The translations under genes and the position numbers were made by a program. Below are positions 1-62,498 of a DNA stretch of 64,000 nucleotides, piece by piece; within the stretch, counting starts at the first letter, position 1, and each line of letters opens with the position of its first letter. The notes under the pieces were generated by a model. It saw only the letters and a program-made list of their open reading frames with translations, had not been told where the DNA came from and did no database searches. The stretch lies in NCBI GenBank assembly GCA_964016885.1, contig OZ024741.1, positions 71,858,001 to 71,922,000 of the forward strand, read 5' to 3'. Origin of the DNA: Eledone cirrhosa (Eukaryota).

Positions 1-721
1 TTTGATAAAATATATCTATAAATCATTGTCATCCTTTTATGTCCATTTTTCCATGCCTGCACTGGCTGTGTGAAATAATAAACAAGTAAAAAAAATTCCT
101 TTGGCTTAAAATAAAATTGAATGAATTTCAAAAAATATAAAATAGATTTTAAAATAAAAGAAAATAAATTTAAAAAAATAAATGAATAAATAGTTTAGTT
201 GATAATGGAGTCATAGGAGAGTAAGAAGTGTAGAAATATAAAAAAAAAAATTTCAAATTGGTGTAAAATCTGAGTAGACAAAAAACAATGTCAAAAATTC
301 TTGCATCTGTGTACTCCTTATTAAATCTATAGGAACACATCTTATTCGGGGTGGCCATGGTCAGTTATGAAATAAAAACTTATTGGCATGTTTACATATG
401 CTGGAAACCTTCATTTTGGCATTTAAATATATCTTTGGATTCTGCAAACTTTTTATGATCAGTTTTTTCTCAGTAGTGCAGAGGCCACATCTTCAGTTGC
501 CACTTTCTTAAGACCTACATCTTTTAAGGATCATCCATTTTCATATTATAGTTTACAGCTTTTTCTTCTAAGAAGCTGTAACTCGAATTAATCTCTTAAC
601 TGCACAGCCATACTTGCACTCTCTTAACCACTATCTATCTATCTGTCTATCTGTGTGTGTGTGCGTGTGCTTGTTTAACCCTCCTAAAACTAATTTCTGT
701 CCTGACTCATTTCTATTTCAG

Positions 722-852
722 GGAAATTATTTAAGTCTAGTGAGCTGCCTGTTTTGGTGGAGTTTTTCCTCATGTTTCATACAGACAAACCCATAGACTG
801 GTTGCTTGACCACTACCTCACAGTTAAGATGTGTAATCCAGAGAAAGACAAT
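722..852 (+). CDS. MGAT4: MGAT4-family alpha-1,3-mannosyl-glycoprotein 4-beta-N-acetylglucosaminyltransferase, internal exon (gene starts upstream of window)
   Basis: ttctatttcAG acceptor and GTaagt donor. Translates (G)[43 protein letters not shown], matching the MGAT4A/B motif [18 protein letters not shown]....VCNPEKD. Confidence 0.93.
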
Positions 853-1529
853 GTAAGTTACATGATTTCTGTCAATCATATCTTTGTAGCTCTCTCTTCC
901 TTCTCCTCATCATTCTTATGTTCGTGTCTCCTCCCTAGATTTTCCTCTCCATTTTTATTGTCTTATTTTCAGACATCCTCCTCTCTCTCTTTCACCCACT
1001 CTACCTTCTCTCTCTCTTTCACCCACTCTCCCTTCTCTCTCTTTCACCCACTCTCCCTTCTCTCTCTTTCACCCACTCTCCCTTCTCTCTCATTTATTTA
1101 CAACTTTTACACACCTTTCTCTCTATACACCTGCTAAAGCCACACAGAAATTGTTTATAATGTCCATGGCTTTAGTATTCCTTTTTCACAAAGCAAAATT
1201 TGTTTATTTCAATCTTTGTGCATTTATAAAATTGTAAATGTATATATACATGTACAACATGGTTTTTTTTTTGTGCTTGTTTGTTTGTTTGTTAATATTC
1301 AGTTGTTTTTGTTCACTTATGTAAAAAATAGCAGATATAAATCTGAATGGGAACCCCATGGTGACACAATATTTTGTATGTATAATCAACATTTAATGTG
1401 TCCGATGCAGTGAGTGTGAATAGGATTATCCTAAAAAAAATTAGGATAATTTTTTTATATAGGTTTAAGTCTGATAAACAGCATTATAAGTGTCAGAGGA
1501 GTCTCCTACTAGAACCAAATCTTTAGGGA

Positions 1530-3357: not shown

Positions 3358-3388
<31 letters not shown>

Positions 3389-3548
3389 TTGGATTTAATG
3401 CTCTGAAATAGCGATATATATGTGAAGACAAACATAGAATATTCGAAAATATTCTGTATGTTTATAATAAACAGTTTGAAGACCTAATCGCTATAGAATA
3501 GAATACGTCACGTATTACAATTTGAGATTCTCGATAAAAGCAAGGGAA

Positions 3549-3591
3549 GTAACCTACGCGTTTCATTCTTATTTGAAATCATCAGGATTAC
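3549..3591 (-). ncRNA. Type I hammerhead ribozyme motif (mirror copy)
   Basis: Reverse complement of 4061-4103. Confidence 0.82.
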
Positions 3592-4060
3592 ATATCCAAT
3601 GCTTTTATCGAGAATGACACAGCTAGAGACTTATAGAATACTTAGCTGTGTACAGGAACTGGTTTGAAAGAGCGGTTGCCGGTCCGGCAGAAATTAGAAT
3701 TTGGATTTAATGCTCTGAAATAGCGATATATATGTGAAGACAAACATAGAATATTCGAAAATATTCTGTATGTTTATAATAAACATTTTGAAGACCTAAT
3801 CGCTATAGAATAGAATACGTCACGTATTACAATTTGAGATTCTCTATAGCGATTAGGTCTTCAAAATGTTTATTATAAACATACAGAATATTTTCGAATA
3901 TTCTATGTTTGTCTTCACATATATATCGCTATTTCAGAGCATTAAATCCAAATTCTAATTTCTGCCGGACCGGCAACCGCTCTTTCAAACCAGTTCCTGT
4001 ACACAGCTAAGTATTCTATAAGTCTCTAGCTGTGTCATTCTCGATAAAAGCATTGGATAT

Positions 4061-4103
4061 GTAATCCTGATGATTTCAAATAAGAATGAAACGCGTAGGT
4101 TAC
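4061..4103 (+). ncRNA. Type I hammerhead ribozyme motif
   Basis: gtaatc-CTGATGA-tttc aaataa gaat-GAAA-cgcg-TA-ggttac. Stem I is extended by a 16-bp helix (4037-4052/4110-4125). Predicted cleavage after A4097. Confidence 0.82.
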
Positions 4104-4771
4104 TTCCCTTGCTTTTATCGAGAATCTCAAATTGTAATACGTGACGTATTCTATTCTATAGCGATTAGGTCTTCAAAATGTTTATTATAAACATACAGAA
4201 TATTTTCGAATATTCTATGTTTGTCTTCACATATATATATATATATGTATGTATGTATATTCTCTGTCTATTTCACCTTCTCTTCCTCACTTTGCCTTCA
4301 GCCTGCATTCCTGTTCTCTTCTCTTTTCTTGTTCTCATTTACTCTGTCTGCTCCTTCCATGTTGTGCCTGTCTATATAGGACATAGGTTCAAACAAACAA
4401 TTATTTTCATTAATATTTATATATTCTCTGTCTCTTCTCACTTCGCCTTCTGTGCATACTTTCTCTTCTTGGCTCATATACTGGGTTTTGTTTATCTCTT
4501 TCTAATTGCTGCACATTGGTTTGTGACAAAATAATTTATTTGTAAATAATTGAAAGAGTAATCGTCTTGTCTTGTCTCGATTTGCTACTGTCCCCATGTG
4601 CACTGGAGCTAGTGGTATCAACCTTAAAGCACTGAAACTACAACAAGCTCCAGCAGTCAACTGATGAAAAAGGACTGTCCTGTGTTTCATTCATTTTTCT
4701 GTTGTCTTCATCCACCTTTTTTTAAAATTCATTTTGTATGATCTTAGCCATGCAGGACACTTTTAAAATGT

Positions 4772-5240: not shown

Positions 5241-5290
5241 GATATATGTGTATGTGTGTCTATAATATGTGTGCATATATTACATTCCAG

Positions 5291-5398
5291 AAACATTGTT
5301 CCAGAATGAAGGAGGAAGTCCGCAGAAGATATAAGCCTTCTCTCTTTCAACATATCGGGATGCAGTCTTCTTTGAAGGGCAAAGTTCAGAAATTACAA
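5291..5398 (+). CDS. MGAT4: MGAT4 internal exon
   Basis: ttccAG/GTgagt, 108 nt, phase 0-0. [36 protein letters not shown] contains the GT54 PSLFQH.G..SSL.GK.QKL motif. Confidence 0.95.
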
Positions 5399-5708
5399 GT
5401 GAGTAATCACAGAATGGCACACCAGAAGCAGGCACCCATTATTTTGATAGGGTGAGAGAGGTAGTGTGGTGGTGGTGGTAGTGGTTAACATTATGGTGAT
5501 GGTGGTATTTTTAACAGTGAATAAACTTATAAATGTGATGTTTTGTGGTGGGTCATATATATTTCAAATTTTAAGACAGGAGTAATTGGTGGAGGGTTTG
5601 GTTGTTAATTCTGGTGAGATTTTGTTGGTGGTGTTAGTGTAGTGTGGTGTGGTAATGTTGGGTAATAGTGTTTTGTGGTAAAGATGATGATGACAACATA
5701 CGTATATA

Positions 5709-7692: not shown

Positions 7693-8862
7693 CCCACGGT
7701 TTTGGATGAGTTTTATAGCAGCAACGATATTGATGATAGTAATGAAGTGATTTATGATGCTGATAACACTCTTAGACTAATTCTAATGACACTTTATCTA
7801 ACCATTGTAAAGCAATAAATAGACCTCCCAATACTAATATTCCAGTAGCTAATTATAATTGTAGGGTCCCTGATTCTTACCCACTTACAAATAATGTTGT
7901 CTATAAGCATGGGGTTTCAACATATAATAAATCATATAAGTACATAGGTGCAACTGAAAATAATTTTAAAACCCAATTTTATTCATGTTTACATTCTTTT
8001 AAGAATGAAAAATTAAAAAAATGCTACTTTCTTAGCTAAATTAATCTAGGACAAAAAAGTGACAATATACGATACTCTATTAAGTGGGATATTATTAATT
8101 CTGCAAAACCTTATGGAGGTGTCGAACTAAGTGTAATCTTTGTCTGATGTAAACATTTGAATTATTACTTTGAAAATTATCCTTCTCAACTCTAGAAATG
8201 AGATAATCCCTTATTGTCCACATAGAACTTTTCATTCTTTCTTTTTCAAAATACTTGACCCTGATTAAATATATCTATTAACATCCTTGCTTAAGTATTT
8301 AATAACACCTTGAATATTAGTCTCATGTATTTTTTATACATAGCTTCTAGGTTAAACTATCTTATAAATCTTTATCTGTTACCCCTCATAGACCTATTTG
8401 ATGACCTTTGATTATTAATTCATATATATACATTTCTATCTATGTATGTATATAATTGTATGTGTGTATATATGTATGTCTGTATATATATATATATATG
8501 ATGATGGCTGCAACTCAGTTTTGAATAATGCCATTGCTTGATACTTAAGCATGAGCATCACGGATGTGGCTTTTTAGTCCTGCTAGGGACTTGCCTACGG
8601 CCGGCAATACCATGCATCACAAAAAATATCACATATCAAGCGATGCCTGTGCTTGAAGCTTTTTTAAATGTGGAAAGGCTTTGCACTGGGCCAATCCCAC
8701 TCTGAATATCGAACACATTTGCCCCCCAAAATAGAACTGGTCTACATCATTAGATGCAGATGAAATTGCAGGTTTTATGTCAGAGTGATCTACTCCTAGA
8801 GAGATGTCTCAATGAAGACTAGGAGTCTCTCGCTCCACAAAATAAAAACATATATATATATA

Positions 8863-21507: not shown

Positions 21508-21545
21508 ATCCCAGGTTCAATCGAGGGTAACCACAGTAAGTAAAG

Positions 21546-21724
21546 TACTCAATACCTAGCAGAGTATATATATTTAATATAGAAATAGCTTCTACAGGAC
21601 TAGAACTGTTTCATTCAAAGGAAATCATCAGGGCTTTCCTGATGATTTCCTTCGAATGAAACAGTTCTAGTCTTGTAGAAGCCATTTCTATATTAAATAT
21701 TTATACTCTGCTATTTATTGAGTA
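21546..21724. repeat. Fold-back palindrome (87-bp arms) with back-to-back HHR cores lacking stem I
   Basis: Arms 21546-21632 and 21638-21724. CTGATGA-tttcc ttcg aat-GAAA-cagttctag-TC on each strand. Related sequence at about 2929-2980 and 32163-32208. Confidence 0.8.
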
Positions 21725-21922
21725 TGTATATATATATATATATATATCATTCATTTTACGTCCGCTTTTCTCTGCTTATATATATAAAATAAAATAATAA
21801 AGATATGATTCCAATTCCTTGGAGGACTAACAACATACCCAGGAACTGGACATATCAATGTATTGACAGAGTGGAACACACTTCAACAACATGTGTACCT
21901 GTCTTTTCCACACCAATTCAGA

Positions 21923-27267: not shown

Positions 27268-27460
27268 AATGTATACATAAATATACATATATGTATGAAT
27301 ATATAAATGTATACATAAATATACATATATGTATGAATATATATATGTATACATGTATATATGTATACATAAATATGCATATGTATATGAATTTATATAT
27401 ATATATATATATTATTCAAAATATTAATAAATGGAGACACTCACGTAATCAAAATATATG

Positions 27461-27522
27461 TTTTATTATATATATTTCGGAGGTACTGTGCTGTTTTTTC
27501 AGTACGTCCTCATCAGATAAAA
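27461..27522 (-). ncRNA. Type I hammerhead ribozyme motif (mirror copy in palindrome 27411-27749)
   Basis: Reverse complement of 27638-27699. Confidence 0.85.
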
Positions 27523-27637
27523 TACATAAATTGATGCATGACATCAACTGTGCTGATGGTTCAATTCCAGTCTTGGCAGTCAAGACTGGAATTGAACCAT
27601 CAGCACAGTTGAGGTATGTCATGCATCAATTTATGTA

Positions 27638-27699
27638 TTTTATCTGATGAGGACGTACTGAAAAAACAGCACAGTACCTCCGAAATATATATAATAAAA
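27638..27699 (+). ncRNA. Type I hammerhead ribozyme motif
   Basis: ttttat-CTGATGA-ggacgtactg...cagtacctcc-GAAA-tatata-TA-ataaaa. Stem II pairs 9 of 10 positions. Confidence 0.85.
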
Positions 27700-27844
27700 C
27701 ATATATTTTGATTATGTGAATGTATCCATTTATTAATATTTTGAATAATATTAATAACTCCAGAAAACTTCTTTGTTGAGTTCTTTTAATCTATTGTAAA
27801 ACTGTATTCATTGAATAATCAATGAACCTTGTTTAACATTTGTT

Positions 27845-28439: not shown

Positions 28440-29520
28440 AGAGCATCTGTCTCTTGAAATGTAAACAGCCCTTAAATATTTCACTTTTAGAGTTCAGGTA
28501 TTTTTTTGATGAGCTCAAACACTGTAAAATCCTGACTTTTTAACTGAGTTAAAGGGAACATCTCTTTGTTTCATTAATGTATGGTCTGGAATTTCCATTT
28601 TATCTTATAGGGATCGCCTCTCTTGTTTAATTGCCAGACTCGTTTTGTTGTGTTGGTCTTCATTTCAGGGTGCTTAATGGAAGAGACGGGTGAGAAGAAA
28701 TTGGTACCATACCCACATGTATTTGACTGCTCTCTACATGTTTGGTGGTGATATATGTAATTTCTATCTCATATACAATGGACTTTATATTATAACTCTG
28801 TAGCAAGGGCAGTCTTCCTGTATCCTGGATCTTCATCAAGTTCTTGTTTGTAGTTATTTTTTATCTCACGGAGGGTCTGCAGGAAGAGTTTATCTTCACA
28901 GTATGCCTACTGAATACTTTGCTGTACTTAAGTTGTGGGGGATAATACTTTTCTATCAGATCTACAAACTTCTTTTCTACATTAGTCTTTTGCTTAAGGG
29001 AGTAAGTAGGGGGAGGGGGTGAACCAGATTATTTTTATTTCTTTATTTCTTTTTTTTTCTAGAATTATCTGGAAAAGCTTTGTAGTATGGTACTGCTTTA
29101 TCAAATATCTCCTGAGTGGATGAAAGGTTAGATATCCTATGGCTAATGTTAGAGACTAGATTTTTAAAAACTATGAAGGGAGTGTGGCAGGATCCGCTGT
29201 TATTATATTTCAGTTTTTCATTAGGCTTATGGTATGGTTTATACATATGTAAGGCCAAGTCTAAGCTAATGTCAAGGAAATTGTCTTTGGTGAGGTTTGT
29301 GTTTACTATAATATTAAATCCTAGTGTGCAAAAGGCTTCTATTAAATGTTTACGGACTCTGTCCCGGATATGGCCATTGCAATTGAGTGATAAAGAAAGG
29401 CCATCATCTCAGTATAGACCAATATCATGGCTGGAGAACTTACACTCAAGTGTATGGAGTATGTTTGATATTATCTAACATGGTCACACACATCAGCACT
29501 GTTGTATGACCCCCATCAAG
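28440..29520 (-). mobile_element. Decayed Penelope-like element (RT C-terminal part plus GIY-YIG remnant)
   Basis: Minus-strand remnants MGSYNSADVCD, GLY*DDGL, YKPYHKPNEKLKY, ISHRISNLSSTQEIFDKAVPYY, KIIWF.P..YSL..KTNVEKKFVDLIEKYYPP, IKWK, LNSKSEIFKGCLH, typical of PLE ORFs. Confidence 0.8.
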
Positions 29521-49160: not shown

Positions 49161-51801
49161 TTATACACTTGTTTCTTTTTTGAATTTACTTGTTAAACTA
49201 TCCTGTCTTTGAGGTAACCAAACATTGTCTAGACTTTCAGAGTCGGAACTTGAGGCAGAATCATCATCATCGTCGTCGTCATCATCCTCTGCCAGCTTTG
49301 TGACACCTCGACCACGTGTCCTCCGATGTTCGTAAGAACTGAATGAACGAGGGAACCAGTACAAGTTACTCCTCACGTCATTCTGACTCTCCTCTGCCAA
49401 CTCCCCATCTTCTTCGCACTTCTTCAGCAGTTTCTGGATTACCTTTTCCTGATAAGAATGGTTCACGTAAGCATATGGAACTTTTGGCGGACGATTTTTG
49501 AACTGTTCGTCCCAGCCGAGCGAATGTTGCTTGGAGAGACGTGAATGTCTGTGAGTATTTCGGTGACGACGCTGATGAGTTGGGTCGGAATGGTGGTCCG
49601 AATCATGACTTTTGGCAGAGTGTTTTGCACACTGGATCTGACTGTCCGACTCATGAAACACAAACTGATTGTCGTTCAGCTGTTTGTTGTTGTTGTTGTT
49701 GCTGCTGCTGCAGTTGTTCTCGTCAGAATCACATTTGCAGCTGATATGATTGGGGGAGTGGGCACGTTGTTGTTGTTGCTGGTGGTGGTGGTTGTTAGTG
49801 TACGGTGGCAATTGAGAAGGGGGATCAGTCTTTGATGGCTGGCCTTGCTGATTGTGATGATGGTGGTGATGATGATGGTGATGGTGATGATGGTGTTGTT
49901 GCAGCTGGTTGGCAAGGCCACCACTACCACTGCTCAAATCACCATCCTCACCAGTTTTGTTGCTGCACACAAAATCTGCAGACTTATTGTTATTTTCTAG
50001 ATGGGGGGGAGGCAGATAGAAATTCTGTCGTGGTGGTCCAAAAGGCGCATTTTGGTTATTTTTATCTATTGGCAATGGAGGACACTCATTGTTTGATGTT
50101 AGATGATTCTCTTTCACCAGATCTGGAGGATTGGCTAATGTAGCAGGCTGAAGACCTTGAGCTAGTGACAGGCCCTTTGCTGAGTCCTTGTTGCTATTTT
50201 GAAAGGCAGAATTATGAACAGGTTCAGGTGGCAAGTATCCTTGAAGAACATGATTTTCAGGGCATTCCACATTACCACTTCTGTCAGCACTCACCTCGCT
50301 CTGGCCATCGAAGTCTCGTAACCTCGGAACAGAGCCATCCCTCACCATGTACTCATTTGGTTGACCCTCATTTTCGACTGCTTTCCCAATTTTTGGTAAT
50401 GTGTTGCAGCGTTTCGGTTGAACAGGAGTGAATGCACTTGAATGTTGATAGGAACTGAGAGATGATGCTCCAGGAGAATGACAAGGAGGTAACGTTTGAG
50501 AGCCAGATGGAGATATAAAGCTACACGAAGGACTGGCTGTTATTGTTTCTGGAGATGTAGGGCCTCCCACTGGAGGTATTTGGTTTCTGTCTAATGGCAG
50601 AGAGGGAAATAATGGTGGAGAAGGTTCATGGATGTTGAGGGGTAATTGATTTGGTACTTTCCCAGGGACAGCTTGTTTTTGAAGGCCAACACCACCATTC
50701 TTAATGTCATCTGCATTTGCTTGGATCTGAATTTCAATACTCCAGTGAGTATTGGCATCAGAGCTGGTGCAGTGACTGTAACGTTTGGTAGGATCATCGA
50801 AGTTGACAGAATTGAAATCACTGATGTCCTTGTTGATTTCTTTGTTTATCAACTTCAGATGATTGTGTCGGTTCTTCTCCCAGAACTTCTTAGCTACACC
50901 GTTTTGTCGAGGGTTGTAAAAATTGGGGTAAGGTGTTTCATGTGCACTGCTCACTGATCCATCGGTAAATGTGGCTGGTTGTATGGGGACAAGGTTAATC
51001 TGTTTGATAGGCCTGTCAACGACCTTCATTTTGTTACTACGTTCATTGTTGTACATTTTCCCGGTTAGTGACTCTCCGTCCACACTGCTCCCTGACCGCA
51101 CATGTCCATTGATATGTGTCATGTGATTGACATTCGGTGGTGTGATGCGAGCAATTTCTACTTCATCTTTCTCACAGCAGAAAAATCGTCTCCAACAGTC
51201 TCGTGAATCATCTCGTAAAAGACAGAAGAAGCCAACAAGAAATCCACCCAGTATAATACTGGATAATCCATAAAGATAACTGAAGATTATCTCTTGTTTT
51301 GGGATGATGGCTCGAAATGGTTGTGCCACAGCAAAAGCAGCACACACCCACGCAACGATGAATAAAAACAGGAAGGTTACTAAAGCTCTCAGTTGTGTGA
51401 TAGGTCGACGTTCCTCGTCTAATATGCTAGATATGCTGGAAATGTTGCTGTCATCTGAATGGATAGAGCGATTGTCTGGCTGGTGTCTGCTACCACTAAC
51501 ACTACTACCTCCACGATGGTGGTTGTTTACATGCAATGGTATACTGGGCGGAGCTTGGTGAGGTTGGTTTGTATTATTGTTGTGGTGATGATGATGATGA
51601 TGTGGGTGAATGTGCTCCTGGTTTGGTGAGAGCTCAATTTCATTGACGTGCAGCTCCTCTGTCTCTTCTGAGTAGCTGGGATTGGCTGATGATCCTCGAA
51701 TAACACAAGAAATCCTCAGGAAGTAGACAAGGTTAATTCCAACCAGTAAGGCTACTGGTCCATAGAATGCTCCAAGACCAGGATCCCAGGATAGATAACA
51801 A
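49161..51801 (-). CDS. ADGRA-like (GPR124/GPR125) adhesion GPCR, terminal exon: TM5-TM7 and long C-tail ending KETSV
   Basis: atttttcAG acceptor at 51803-51802. CYLSWDPGLGAFYGPVALLVGINLVYFLRIS... is in frame with the 791-aa ORF. TM6 LRALVTFLFLFIVAWVCAAFAVA, TM7 IFSYLYGLSSIILGGFLVGFFCLL, class I PDZ-binding end ETSV, stop TAA at 49163-49161. Confidence 0.93.
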
Positions 51802-52565
51802 CTGAAAAATAAAGTAAATCATTTAATATTTAGAGAACGAACAAAAATAAGCTGATTTTATAGCATTTGATATTCATATAATTACACACACACAAAAAAA
51901 TACATACATATATATACATACATACACACATACATATTTATATCAATATTATCAACACTGATCTAGTGATCATCGTAATCCACAAAGGAGGAAGTGTTAA
52001 ATATTTGTAATAGCGTAACATGAATAAATCAACTTATATGTATGAATATGAATGACCACAAAGATAGTACCATTTTTTCATATATTAATTAATTCAATAA
52101 ACTGCATTATGTGCATTTCTGGATCCCCCACACTACAAGACAATACACTGCTTATCACTATAAATGGTAACTCAGTGCAATTCACAGATTACTACTACAA
52201 ACCCAAAGTTCACTCACCACATAAACTTCATCTGTCCCCTCTCTACCTCTCTCTCTACATCCATTACACTCTCTCTCTCTCTCTCGCCTACCTCCCTCCC
52301 TCTCCACGTCTATGAACCTGCCCTCTGGGGCAATAAATAATTCCGACCTTAACTATCAACGCATCTCTCCAAAAGTAACCAGTATAATAAAACCCCTACC
52401 ATAACATTTTGATTAAGATATCTACAAACCACTCTCTCCTACTTCTCCAACCCCTGCATATCTTTCTCTCTCTCTCCCTCTCCCCTACTTTTCTCTCTTC
52501 CTTTTCTACTCTATCTTCCCCAACAACCCCACTTAAGGGTATTTACATTGTACATTTTACCATTC

Positions 52566-52725: not shown

Positions 52726-52791
<66 letters not shown>

Positions 52792-52793
<2 letters not shown>

Positions 52794-54692
52794 GTGCAAC
52801 TAATCAGAGAGAGAATTGATCTAGATGAAATGCAGTTCGGGTTTGTGTCAGGCAAAAGTACCACAGACGCTCTTTTCATTGTACGACAACTACAGGAGAA
52901 GTACCTAGCTAAAAGTAAACCCCTATACTTAGCCTTTCTCGACTTGGAGAAAGCGTTCGACAGAGTCCCCCGTTCCATTATCTGGTGGGCTCTTAGAAAA
53001 CTAGGTGTTGATGAATGGCTTGTGAGAGCTATACAAGCCATGTATAAAGAAACAGTCAGCAAGGTTAGAATTAACAACGAATATAGTGAAGAGTTTACCG
53101 TAAAAGTTGGTGTTCATCAGGGCTCTGTTCTTAGCCCCCTACTATTTATTATTGCCCTACAGGCTATAACAGTGGAGTTCAAGACCGGCTGCCCATGGGA
53201 ACTCCTATACGCAGATGATCTAACGCTCATAACTGAATCAATGGCCGATCTAGAGAAGAAATTCCAAACATGGAAGCACGGCCTAGAATCAAAAGGCCTT
53301 AAAATTAACCTGGCTAAGACTAAAGTTCTAGTTTGTAGGAAAGAAAATAAGGCGGCGGTCCCTTCCGGGAAATGGCCATGCTCAGTGTGTAGGAAAGGCG
53401 TAGGTAGAAACTCCATTTTATGTCCCAAATGCAAAGTATGGGTGCATAAAAGATGTAGTGGGATCACAGGTAAGCTAACTAAGAACATAGATTTTACATG
53501 TGGCCGGTGCTCTGGTGCAATAAGTAGCAGCAAGTGCCCACAAAATACTAGCTCTTTCAATTGCGCAGAGGGTTCTATAGAAATAGTGGACAGCTTCCGT
53601 TACCTGGGTGACAAAATCAGCAGTGGGGGAGGGTGCTCTGAAAGTACAGTAGCTAGAGTCAGAACTGGATGGAAAAAGTTCAGAGAGCTTATACCACTAT
53701 TAGCCGCTAAAGGGTTCTCCCTAAAAATGAAAGGCAGGCTGTATGATGCCTGCATACGAACAGCAATGTTGCATGGCAGTGAGACCTGGGCATTGTGTGC
53801 AGAGGATATACGCAGACTAGAGAGGAACGAAGCTTGCATGCTCCGCTGGATGTGTAATAGTAATATACGCGAACGGCAAAGCATAAACGAACTAAGGGAA
53901 AAATTAGAAATAAGAGGGATCAGATGTTGTTTAGTCGAGAGAAGGCTATGTTGGTATGGTCACGTGATGCGCATGAAAGACGACAGCTGTATAAAAAAGT
54001 GCAGGGCAATAAAGATAGATGGTAGCCACGGAGTAGGCAGACCCAGAAAAACCTGGGATGACCTGATAAATTCCGACCTCACAAACTTACACCTCTCCAA
54101 GACAATGTCATTGGACCGAGATCTTTGGCGGTACTCAGTAATAGAGAAGACCCGCCTTACCTGAAATACAAAGTAAAACCTACTACAGTCAGTAGGCATC
54201 TCTAACAAAACACACCCCCGTCCCACCATCCCCACCCCATCCACACCGCCCCTTTCAATGTAAAGTTATGTTGGTGCCACAACATCCAGGCCGAAACAAA
54301 TGAGATCGTGTAGGTGTCACGACAAAAAAAAAAAAAATAAAAAAAAAACACAGTCCACGCTGTAATGTGGCCGTGTAGGCAACACGGTAAAAACCTCCCA
54401 GTCCCACACTGTAAATGTGGTTGGTGTTAGGAAGGGCATCCAGCTGTAGAAAACCCGCCAGACAGTCCACGCTGTAATGTGGCCGTGTAGGCAACACGGT
54501 AAAAACCTCCCAGCCCCACACTGTAAATGTGGTTGGTGTTAGGAAGGGCATCCAGCCGTAGAAAACCCGCCAGACAGTCCTATGCAAGCAAGACAACCAC
54601 TCTTGCCTCAAGTGGGAAAACTCCCGTCCAAACCCATGCAAGCGTGGAACATGGACGTTAAACGATGATGATGATGATGATGAGGATGATGA
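52792..54692 (+). mobile_element. RTE-clade LINE, 5'-truncated, open RT frame 52794-54164
   Basis: QFGF..GKSTTDA, FLDLEKAFDRVP, GVHQGSVLSPLLF, LLYADDL, Cys-rich insert, RL.WYGHV.RM...GRP. 3' UTR ends in (GAT)n, with (TA)n on both sides. Confidence 0.95.
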
Positions 54693-60264: not shown

Positions 60265-62456
60265 CATCATCATCACCGTTTTACGTCCGTTCTTCCACGC
60301 TAGCATGGGTTAGACGGGTTGTCCTGTTGTGGGCAGTGTCTGGTCGGCTGACCATGCCTTGCTCATACAGGAACTGATCTGGCTTGATTTCTACAGCTGG
60401 ATGCCCTTCCTAACACCAACCTCATTTACAGTGAGTGCTGGGTGCTTTTTCGTGGCGCCTACACGTCCACTTTACAGTGTGGGCTGGGTGCTTTTTTGCC
60501 GTGGCACCTCCACGACCACCTTGCGGTGGGGGGAGTGGGGGCATATTGTTTATATGCTTCAGCATGTACCCATGGGAGGTCGGGTACCCTGTATTACTGC
60601 GTGACGCCAGAAGTCACGGTCGTGTGTCATTGACTTTGAGAGGTGTAGTTGGGTAAGGTCGGCTTTTATCACCTCATCCCAAGTCATCTTGGGTCTCCCC
60701 ACTCCGCGGTTTCCATCAACTTCTAGTGCTCTGCACCTTTTTATGCAGCTGTCATCCTTCATACGCATCACATGTCCATACCAGCGTAACCGCCTCTCCT
60801 GCACGCAGCATTTGATTCCTCTTATGCTCAGTCTCTCTCTCAATTCCTTTATGCTTTGTCGTTCACGTATATTACTGTTACACATCCATCGGAGCATGCA
60901 GGCTTCGTTTCTCTCTAATCTACGTAAGTCTTCCACCTTCAGCGCCCAGGTCTCACTACCATGCAACATCGCTGTTCGGATACACGCATCATACAGTCTG
61001 CCTTTCATTCTGAGGGAGAAGCCTTTTGCAGCTAGCAGTGGTAGTAGTTCCCTAAACTTCTTCCATCCCGTTCTTACCCTAGTTATTGTACTTTCTGAGC
61101 ACCCACCTCCGTTGCTAATTCGGTCACCTAGGTAGCAGAAGCTGTCTACTGTTTCTACAGGGCCCTCCCAGAGATTGGTGGTACTTGTTTCCTGTGGCTG
61201 TTTGCTTGCTGTTTCAGCACAGCTGCTGCATGTGAATCCTACATTCTTAATTAAGCTTCCTGAGATCCCGCTACATCTCTTGTGTACCCATTGTTTGCAT
61301 TTGGGGCAGAGAATGGAGTTCCTACCTACACCTTTCCTACATACTGAGCAAGGCCATTTCCCTGAGGGGATCTGGGTTCTGTTTTCTCGTCTACTTATAA
61401 GGACCTTAGTCTTTGTCATGTTGACTTTGAGGCCCTTTCTCTCTAGTCCCTGCTTCCAGGTTTGGAATTTATTCTCTAGTTCTACCATAGATTCAGCTAT
61501 GAGTGCGAGGTCATCAGCATACAGGAGTTCCCATGGGCATCCGGTCTTAAACTCCTCCGTTATTGCCTGCAGGACTATGATGAACAGGAGAGGGCTAAGA
61601 ACAGAGCCCTGGTGGACCCCAACCTGTACGCTAAATTCCTCGCTATACTCATTGCCAATCCTAACTTTGCTGACTGCTCCCCTATACATGGCTTGTACAG
61701 CTTTCACAAGCCATTCATCTACTCTTAGTTTTCTAAGAGCCCACCAGATTACTGCACGTGGAACTCTGTCAAAGGCTTTCTCAAGGTCGACAAATGCCAA
61801 GTAGAGTGGCTTACTTTTAGCTAGGTACTTTTCCTGTAATTGCCTCACAAGGAAGAGGGCATCAGTGGTGCCTTTCCCTGGTACAAACCCAAATTGCATC
61901 TCGTCTATATTCACCCGGTCCCTAATCAGCTGTGCTATAACTCTTTCTGTTACTTTCATGACCTGGTCCATCAACTTTATACCTCTATAGTTTCCTCTAT
62001 CTAGTGCATCGCCTTTACCTTTGTAGCAGTTGACAATGATGCTACTGCACCAATCTTTTGGTATGGCCCCCTCTAGTATTACCTGGTTAACGATACGTGT
62101 GGTTATAGTGTGACCTACAGACCCAGATGCCTTCAGCATCTCGGCAGCTATACCCGATGGACCGGTTGCCTTCCCTATCTTCATATCTCTGATTGCCTTA
62201 CTTACTACGCTGCCGCTGACTTGTACTGCTGGTCCCTCTATAGGGTCTACGTGGGGTAGGGTCTCTTCTTCCCATGCATTCTCCTCATTTAGTAATCTAT
62301 CATAATGACTCTTCCATGCATCTTTCTTCCCAGCACTTGTGAGGGCAAGCTCACCTTTATCATTCCGGATACACTTCTCTCCAATGACATCACAACTATC
62401 TCTGACACACTGCCTCGCAATCTTGAATACCTCCTGTTTCTGGTCCTCACGTTGTA
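60263..62456 (-). mobile_element. RTE-clade LINE, 5'-truncated, open RT frame 62456-60559
   Basis: KGKGDALDRGNYRGIKLM, DLEKAFDRVP, QGSVLSP, YADD. Same 3' tail ending (GAT)n, embedded in (TA)n. Confidence 0.95.
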
Positions 62457-62498
62457 AGGACCAGAAACAGGAGGTATTCAAGATTGATATATATATTC

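What the first reader, a model, noticed from the sequence alone, without database searches (positions are those of the whole stretch)
3388..4237. Very young 312-bp HHR monomer arranged as about 1.5 tandem copies plus an inverted 1.3 copies in an MGAT4 intron
Seen: period of 312 bp (3388 to 3700), then a switch at about 3843 into a roughly 395-bp inverted arm that is almost identical. Each full monomer carries one HHR whose stem I continues past an internal loop into a 16-bp helix, the layout that permits loop-loop tertiary contacts. Inference: head-to-tail permuted copies with one HHR per monomer are expected from reverse transcription of a circular or multimeric RNA (retrozyme) or a PLE pLTR, with fold-back second-strand priming.
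Basis: partly seen in the sequence, partly recalled or inferred. Interest (0 to 1): 0.85.

Follow-up and report, generated by a model that had tools for sequence, protein, structure and literature searches.

The report
Two-armed, Penelope-pasted hammerhead retrozyme copy
This is one likely dead-end copy of a young, abundant non-coding repeat that carries a predicted self-cutting RNA motif, and its sister copies sit as mirror-image arms starting at two fixed points, which likely means that a Penelope-type jumping-gene enzyme copied a probably circular RNA into both ends of a DNA break.

Summary
Observation confirmed. A 312-bp unit forms two diverging arms (3387-3844 minus, 1.47 units; 3843-4238 plus, 1.27 units; one mismatch) in a (TA)n run of an MGAT4 intron, with one type I hammerhead motif per arm. 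It is no artefact and no ORF-attached pLTR. The family has 9,574 exact ribozyme cores, 118 of this sub-lineage. 43 of 44 and, in an unbiased sample, 34 of 37 two-armed insertions end at two fixed sites about 30 nt apart, one per arm: the Penelope (PLE) 'tail'. Young Hydra-type PLEs here insert the same way, but none matches the unit. Fold-back priming is impossible at 16 of 34 loci. Shared variants in both arms, no scars at the cut site (0 of 281 passes) and unmirrored errors favour repeated reading of one unit, probably a circle. This locus has one ribozyme per strand, so it probably releases no unit. No RNA, cleavage or circle was shown. The scan found this family before: a 310-bp lineage 95.7% identical, at other loci. 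New here: the fold-back test, a strand-biased error spectrum, and one possible chimera of two retrozyme families.

The parts
3387..3844 (-). Left arm, 458 nt = 1.47 units; RNA 3' end points outward at the 'long' start site (unit position 168; position 1 = base 4098, first after the cut)
   Evidence: one substitution, at 3474
3843..4238 (+). Right arm, 396 nt = 1.27 units; RNA 3' end points outward at the 'short' start site (132-141, an AUAUAUAU motif that merges with the target)
   Evidence: no substitution
3387..3413 (-). 27-nt 'tail' (unit 142-168), present at the left end only; 27-36 nt depending on the true short start
   Evidence: same asymmetry in 43 of 44 and 34 of 37 two-armed loci
4061..4103 (+). 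Type I hammerhead motif: stem I 6 bp, CUGAUGA, U-U plus 3-bp stem II, GAAA, palindromic 2-bp stem III, predicted cut after 4097
   Evidence: sequence; no Rfam hit; cleavage not tested
3549..3591 (-). Mirror-image hammerhead motif of the left arm
4037..4125 (+). 16-bp helix (4037-4052 with 4110-4125) extending stem I; predicted to hold the two ends of a cut unit together
   Evidence: (D17, D18), folds
3843..3844 (.). Central junction of the two 5'-truncated arms (unit positions 23 and 58), 2-nt microhomology
3360..3386 (.). (TG)n(TA)n target microsatellite, left part
4239..4258 (.). (TA)n/(TGTA)n target microsatellite, right part; a target duplication cannot be read here
715..858 (+). Host MGAT4 exon upstream (approximate, PF04666 positions 195-242)
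5264..5404 (+). Host MGAT4 exon downstream (approximate, PF04666 positions 232-278)

Best explanation
This is a very young insertion of a non-coding 312-nt hammerhead repeat (a non-LTR retrozyme), likely written into a (TA)n run by a Penelope-like enzyme that cut both DNA strands and primed one cDNA from each end on a probably circular RNA unit. Inferred steps: (1) a source array with two or more ribozymes on one strand is transcribed, cut to 312-nt units and probably ligated, the ends held by the 16-bp helix; (2) a PLE RT/GIY-YIG protein acting in trans nicks both strands of (TA)n; (3) one target end primes at unit position about 168 and the other at 132-141, as a rule on the same RNA; (4) each RT runs past the ribozyme site, one to ten or more turns, and stops at random; (5) the two cDNA 3' ends are joined by short homology, giving 5'-to-5' arms. 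Shown: the anatomy, the end rule and the variant patterns. Odds: PLE-type two-site priming about 0.9; circular template about 0.65. This copy is probably a dead-end daughter.
For: End rule: one long end (160-175) and one short end (120-143) in 43 of 44 two-armed loci (four second arms under 40 nt were left out; with two of them the first sample gave 26 of 30) and in 34 of 37 loci chosen only by the long-end junction; none had two long or two short ends. An anole PLE protein extends both strands and starts at two internal RNA sites that bound the tail (PMC11167929); an inverted truncated copy plus a one-sided 30-40 bp tail is the PLE hallmark (PMC8557442). Young PLEs in this genome insert the same way: a 773-aa family (40 of 40 scored copies 100% identical over 291 bp; ends 115 nt apart) with the Hydra-clade motifs RWK, DKT, CxCX5C, and a 713-aa family with a tail of about 90 nt. 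One unit re-read: 160 fixed variants shared by both arms in 24 loci against 2 discordant (most are lineage markers, so not independent), including rare ones such as 116T>G in 19 of 19 units of L050. No indel within 5 nt of the cut site in 281 passes; inner ends there 1 of 100 and 2 of 68 (2.4 expected). Singletons (0.15%) are strand-biased, 44 of 58 transitions from pyrimidines in RNA sense, p=0.001, so many probably arose during insertion; only 1-2 are shared by both arms, against about 38 expected from a linear multimer with such singletons.
Against: No RNA, cleavage or circle is shown. No PLE terminus matches the unit (best case 8 of 200 shuffles scored as high), and the tails of the PLEs measured (about 90 and 115 nt) differ from this one (27-40). 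Twelve variants are carried by some but not all units of a locus, and L256 shows a five-unit duplication after insertion, so arrays are not pure birth records. Arm lengths are not significantly correlated (rho 0.32, -0.31, 0.59; p 0.11, 0.46, 0.056), although two RTs on one circle might predict that. The expected count of 38 assumes that source arrays carry typical singletons. In the anole system the uncut RNA was the dominant substrate in vitro. The U-U pair and 3-bp stem II may weaken cleavage.
Confidence: 0.66

Rival explanations
1. Same PLE two-end priming, but the template is a cut, unligated unit held shut by the 16-bp helix, and the RT jumps from its 5' end to its 3' end on each turn.
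For: Gives the same one-unit bottleneck; the fold brings the ends together; needs no ligase.
Against: No indel near the cut site in 281 passes and no pile-up of inner ends there; a jump would be expected to leave scars or stops (inference).
Confidence: 0.13
2. The template is an uncut multimeric transcript of a source array, the ribozyme plays little part, and long arrays grow after insertion.
For: Ribozyme-dead PLE RNA inserted normally in vitro; partial variant runs in 12 cases; duplication in L256; one in-register shared singleton, L048; Li et al. favour local expansion.
Against: 68 singletons in doubly covered stretches are unmirrored and 1-2 are shared, against about 38 expected; rare variants are fixed across all units of both arms in insertions with almost no other change.
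Confidence: 0.12
3. These are solo pseudo-LTRs of an autonomous PLE not yet found, that is ordinary truncated insertions.
For: PLE pLTRs carry hammerheads and give inverted pairs; Xenopus retrozymes resemble pLTRs; only Hydra-like PLEs were sampled here.
Against: Units follow each other head to tail with no ORF between, up to 14 or more per arm; none of 97 loci is joined to an ORF in sense; nearby ORFs are separated by TA runs.
Confidence: 0.05
4. One cDNA folded back and copied itself to make the inverted arm.
For: Feasible at this locus; five loci are joined through the unit's own 16-bp inverted repeat (L172, L245, L251, L254, L260).
Against: Impossible from either arm at 5 of 30 and 16 of 34 loci, L251 among them; neither end class is consistently the longer arm (16 against 14; 12 of 34); errors are not mirrored.
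Confidence: 0.03
5. The palindrome is an assembly or library chimera.
For: No contig of the runs laid spans the centre junction, which short-read contigs of a high-copy repeat would not.
Against: 77 loci share the two fixed outer ends with different inner junctions; an artefact would not respect them.
Confidence: 0.01

Closest known systems
Metazoan non-LTR retrozymes (Cervera and de la Pena 2020, PMC7229834: abstract, passages, sections 13, 14 and 17 read; Li, Clavereau and Pollet 2026, bioRxiv 10.64898/2026.07.22.740005: parts 1-3 of 5 read, supplements not seen)
   Same: Non-coding 150-450-bp tandem unit, GC 34%, canonical type I hammerhead in each unit, thousands of copies, PLEs in the same genome.
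   Different: Two opposed arms with fixed PLE start sites are not described in the parts read ('inverted' occurs 0 times in PMC7229834). Both papers propose PLE mobilisation but show no insertion footprint. Circles were shown there and are not shown here. This copy lacks two consecutive ribozymes, Li's criterion for an active element.
Penelope-like element insertions with inverted pLTR and tail (Craig et al. 2021, PMC8557442: passages and section 11 read; Frangieh et al. 2024, PMC11167929: parts 1-2 of 4 read)
   Same: Inverted 5'-truncated second copy, one-sided tail of about 30 nt, (TA)n target, two internal start sites, hammerhead upstream of the ends.
   Different: No ORF; both arms are multimers of a 312-nt unit; no sequence link to a resident PLE was found. 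The ribozyme is canonical rather than the minimal pLTR type (PMC4209133, part 1 of 4 read).
Non-autonomous Chlamys elements such as MRC1 (PMC8557442, passage)
   Same: Non-autonomous, PLE-mobilised, multicopy head-to-tail insertions.
   Different: Those share 3' ends with their autonomous partner, and Chlamys mostly lack canonical hammerheads; here there is a hammerhead and no shared end was found.

Membership tests
Non-LTR retrozyme | Tandem non-coding unit of 150-450 bp, GC under 50% | tested here: met
   312 bp, GC 0.34; no Pfam family at cut-off in the plus-strand frames of the element
Non-LTR retrozyme | Type I hammerhead in each unit | tested here: met
   core and stems present, stem I kept by compatible changes between lineages; no Rfam hit; U-U at 10.1/11.1
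Non-LTR retrozyme | Dispersed multicopy arrays without LTR structure | tested here: met
   9,574 exact cores, control 0; 97 loci mapped; PBS and PPT not searched
Non-LTR retrozyme | Two or more consecutive ribozymes on one strand (active copy, Li et al.) | tested here: not met
   this locus has one per strand; met by 14 of 34 sister loci
Non-LTR retrozyme | Self-cleavage | not testable with these tools
   needs in vitro transcription
Non-LTR retrozyme | Expressed as linear and circular RNA | tested here: inconclusive
   no RNA holder listed
PLE-mobilised insertion | Inverted 5'-truncated second copy with a tail at one end only | tested here: met
   43 of 44 and 34 of 37
PLE-mobilised insertion | AT-rich or (TA)n target | tested here: met
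   junction print-outs
PLE-mobilised insertion | Shared terminus with an autonomous partner | tested here: inconclusive
   no match to five PLE termini or in 90 mostly PLE-bearing loci beyond family copies; other clades not sampled
Autonomous PLE or its pLTR | RT plus GIY-YIG ORF between the repeats | tested here: not met
   none inside any insertion

The most novel reading that the evidence does not exclude
A Hydra-type PLE dimer runs two rolling circles at once on one ribozyme RNA circle, each subunit primed by one end of the break and displacing the other's cDNA. It recognises cargo by structure, not sequence, so that now and then the two subunits take different RNAs. L156 would be such a case: a 467-family arm with its long end and a 312-family arm with its short end in one (TA)n run. 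This would be an in-vivo record of rolling-circle retrotransposition and of two-template insertion.
Probability: 0.33. Interest if true: 0.78.

Novelty: new variant of a known kind. Interest (0 to 1): 0.52.

Why it matters
How animal retrozymes get back into DNA is proposed but not shown in the papers read, and how PLEs make their inverted arm and tail is only partly resolved in vitro. This family joins the two questions: start sites mapped to a few bases, a short RNA and intact candidate enzymes in the same genome make the circle-versus-linear and one-RNA-versus-two questions directly testable. The single locus matters little: it is an intronic, probably inert copy that may give MGAT4 pre-mRNA a 396-bp hairpin.

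Tried and rejected
Rfam scan: no hit. Partner search: three young PLE families (719, 713, 773 aa) and two others were compared with the unit; none significant. A 32-nt likeness upstream of the ORF in L085 belongs to another repeat. Pfam found nothing in the 719-aa ORF and PDB nothing in the 773-aa ORF; the Hydra call rests on motifs, no tree was built. Sequencing runs: no RNA holder listed. A 342-nt contig in run X4 closes on itself (312+30), but tandem DNA gives that too, so it is no evidence of a circle. Summed contig depths are not copy numbers. The empty site and the centre junction could not be read from contigs. An excess of errors just after the cut site (10 against 5.2, p=0.04) is no stronger than several other windows: rejected. 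A-to-G editing is not enriched (6 of 119 substitutions). No Pol III B box was found; the promoter is unknown. A look-up of earlier findings by sequence gave nothing, although a 95.7% identical locus had been reported. Paper searches listed no paper on two-armed retrozyme insertions or on octopus hammerheads; only listings were seen for papers not named above, and subscription journals are mostly missing.

Full report
Observation. The window holds a 312-bp unit as two diverging arms: 3387-3844 (RNA sense on the minus strand, 1.47 units) and 3843-4238 (sense on plus, 1.27 units). They overlap by 2 nt and differ at one base, 3474. Each arm carries one type I hammerhead motif: 6-bp stem I, CUGAUGA, a U-U pair over a 3-bp stem II, GAAA, a palindromic 2-bp stem III and a GUA site at 4095-4097. 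Stem I continues past an internal loop into a perfect 16-bp helix. Rfam reports nothing at gathering score. A natural 331-nt stretch of a sister copy folds better than all 100 shuffles (z -6.0). Both flanks are TA/TG microsatellite, and the element lies between MGAT4 exons at about 715-858 and 5264-5404. The host is an animal genome of 3.0 Gb; earlier notes call it a cephalopod, which I did not test.

Family. The genome holds 9,574 exact copies of the ribozyme core (control 0), 118 with this window's exact ribozyme and 116 exact long-end junctions of 312-type lineages. The locus of an earlier finding, a 310-bp array, is 95.7% identical to this unit, and short-read runs show that most of the family differs from the window at a few sites. 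The window copy is therefore a member of a small, young 312-bp sub-lineage of a family the scan has already met. A run under another organism label holds an abundant relative. I mapped 97 loci: 35 best hits including the window, 2 met on the way, 20 from pattern lists and 40 chosen only by the long-end junction.

End rule. I number the unit from the base after the cut (window 4098). The outer, RNA-3' ends fall in two classes: long (160-175, mostly 168) and short (120-143, mostly at an AUAUAUAU motif, 132-141). 43 of 44 two-armed loci have one of each. Four second arms under 40 nt were left out of that count; with two of them included the first sample gave 26 of 30, and one of those exceptions resolved on extension. 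In the unbiased sample 34 of 37 second ends were short, 3 were irregular and none was long; 2 loci were one-armed and 1 ran off the region. Inner ends are scattered (Rayleigh p 0.30) and mostly joined by 0-8 nt of overlap or a few extra bases; five loci are joined through the unit's own 16-bp inverted repeat. This is the PLE pattern of an inverted truncated copy and a one-sided 30-40-bp tail (PMC8557442), which an anole PLE reproduces in vitro by extending both strands from two internal RNA sites (PMC11167929).

Candidate enzymes. Three young PLE families with open frames of 719, 713 and 773 aa were found. The 773-aa protein has the Hydra-clade motifs RWK, DKT and CxCX5C, a hammerhead-like motif in its pLTR, 40 of 40 scored copies identical over 291 bp, and two ends 115 nt apart in (TA)n. 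The 713-aa family shows an inverted arm and a tail of about 90 nt. None shares sequence with the unit beyond chance, so the partner is not identified. No family insertion contains an ORF or is joined to one in sense; neighbouring ORFs are separated by TA runs.

Fold-back. If the second arm were a DNA copy of the first, it would have to fit inside it. That is possible here (35-nt loop) but impossible from either arm at 5 of 30 and 16 of 34 loci. Neither end class is regularly the longer arm. Each target end therefore primed its own cDNA.

Template. Both arms nearly always carry the same haplotype: 160 fixed variants are shared in 24 loci against 2 discordant. Most are lineage markers, but some are rare, such as 116T>G in all 19 units of L050. 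A rare variant fixed in every unit of both arms implies a bottleneck through one unit. Singletons occur at 0.15% and are strand-biased (44 of 58 transitions from pyrimidines in RNA sense, p 0.001), so many probably arose at insertion and source arrays should carry them too. A linear multimer would pass about 38 of them to both arms in register; 1-2 are shared and 68 are unmirrored. The cut site shows no indel in 281 passes and no excess of inner ends, which favours a ligated circle over repeated jumps on a cut unit. Against a clean picture: 12 variants sit in some but not all units of a locus, L256 has a five-unit duplication, arm lengths are not significantly correlated, and the anole ribozyme was dispensable in vitro.

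This locus. It has one ribozyme per strand, so it cannot release a unit by two cuts, and in the MGAT4 pre-mRNA the ribozyme is predicted to pair with the other arm. It is probably a dead-end daughter; 14 of 34 sisters have two or more ribozymes on a strand.

A possible two-RNA insertion. L156 has, in one microsatellite, a left arm of the unrelated 467-nt hammerhead family and a right arm of this family, joined by about 7 nt of homology. The 467 arm carries that family's long end and the 312 arm the short end, as the rule requires. It is one case in 97, and L254 shows that a copy can abut an older neighbour without TA between them, so deletion between two neighbouring insertions remains an equal explanation.

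Comparison. By anatomy it is a non-LTR retrozyme (PMC7229834; Li et al. 2026); cleavage and circles are untested, and this copy fails Li's criterion for an active element. It works like a non-autonomous PLE. The papers read propose PLE mobilisation and circular templates but show no insertion footprint; five searches listed none that does. The supplements of these papers were not seen and may show such structures. Earlier notes of this scan reach the same reading for this and other families; they are not independent support. Verdict: a real feature, a new variant of a known kind, interest 0.52.

Noticed in passing
L156:3046-4194 (G000:C1:203810600-203818600): Possible chimeric insertion: 467-family arm with its long end plus 312-family arm with its short end in one (TA)n run.
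   Followed up: partly
window 21510-21730: Older two-armed hammerhead remnant of another family (cores at 21631 minus and 21639 plus, same U-U closing pair) between TA runs; a likely fragment of it at about 2860-2960.
   Followed up: partly
window 27420-27760: Another two-armed remnant with hammerhead-like cores at 27516 minus and 27644 plus.
   Followed up: no
window 29043-29408 (-) and 7776-8036 (+): Decayed PLE reverse transcriptase and GIY-YIG fragments; tens of thousands of candidates genome-wide.
   Followed up: partly
L158:381-3775: Extremely young 773-aa Hydra-type PLE with tandem pLTRs, hammerhead-like motif and 115-nt tail; 804 candidates, 40 of 40 scored identical over 291 bp.
   Followed up: yes
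L145:6775-6815: The 713-aa PLE family has a variant hammerhead-like core (CAGAAGA) with the same U-U pair closing stem II.
   Followed up: no
L042:5113-5450: Rearranged family copy whose 5' side runs into TTAGGG-like repeats.
   Followed up: no
L229:853-968: About 115 nt of foreign sequence inside one arm, a possible template switch.
   Followed up: no
L256:712-5001: Arm of 14 or more units with variants repeated five units apart: duplication after insertion.
   Followed up: partly
L163-L175 versus L031-L064: 310-lineage insertions are longer (median 2,466 nt, n=13) than 312-lineage ones (917 and 1,130; n=32 and 11; p=0.017); the samples were drawn differently and the cause is unknown.
   Followed up: partly
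window 60559-62496 (-) and 52731-54164 (+): LINE-type ORFs; the first has RVT_1 and PHD domains.
   Followed up: no
window 49161-51818 (-): 885-aa open frame ending ETSV after membrane-like segments; resembles the last exon of an adhesion GPCR (recalled, not tested; no significant Pfam hit).
   Followed up: no
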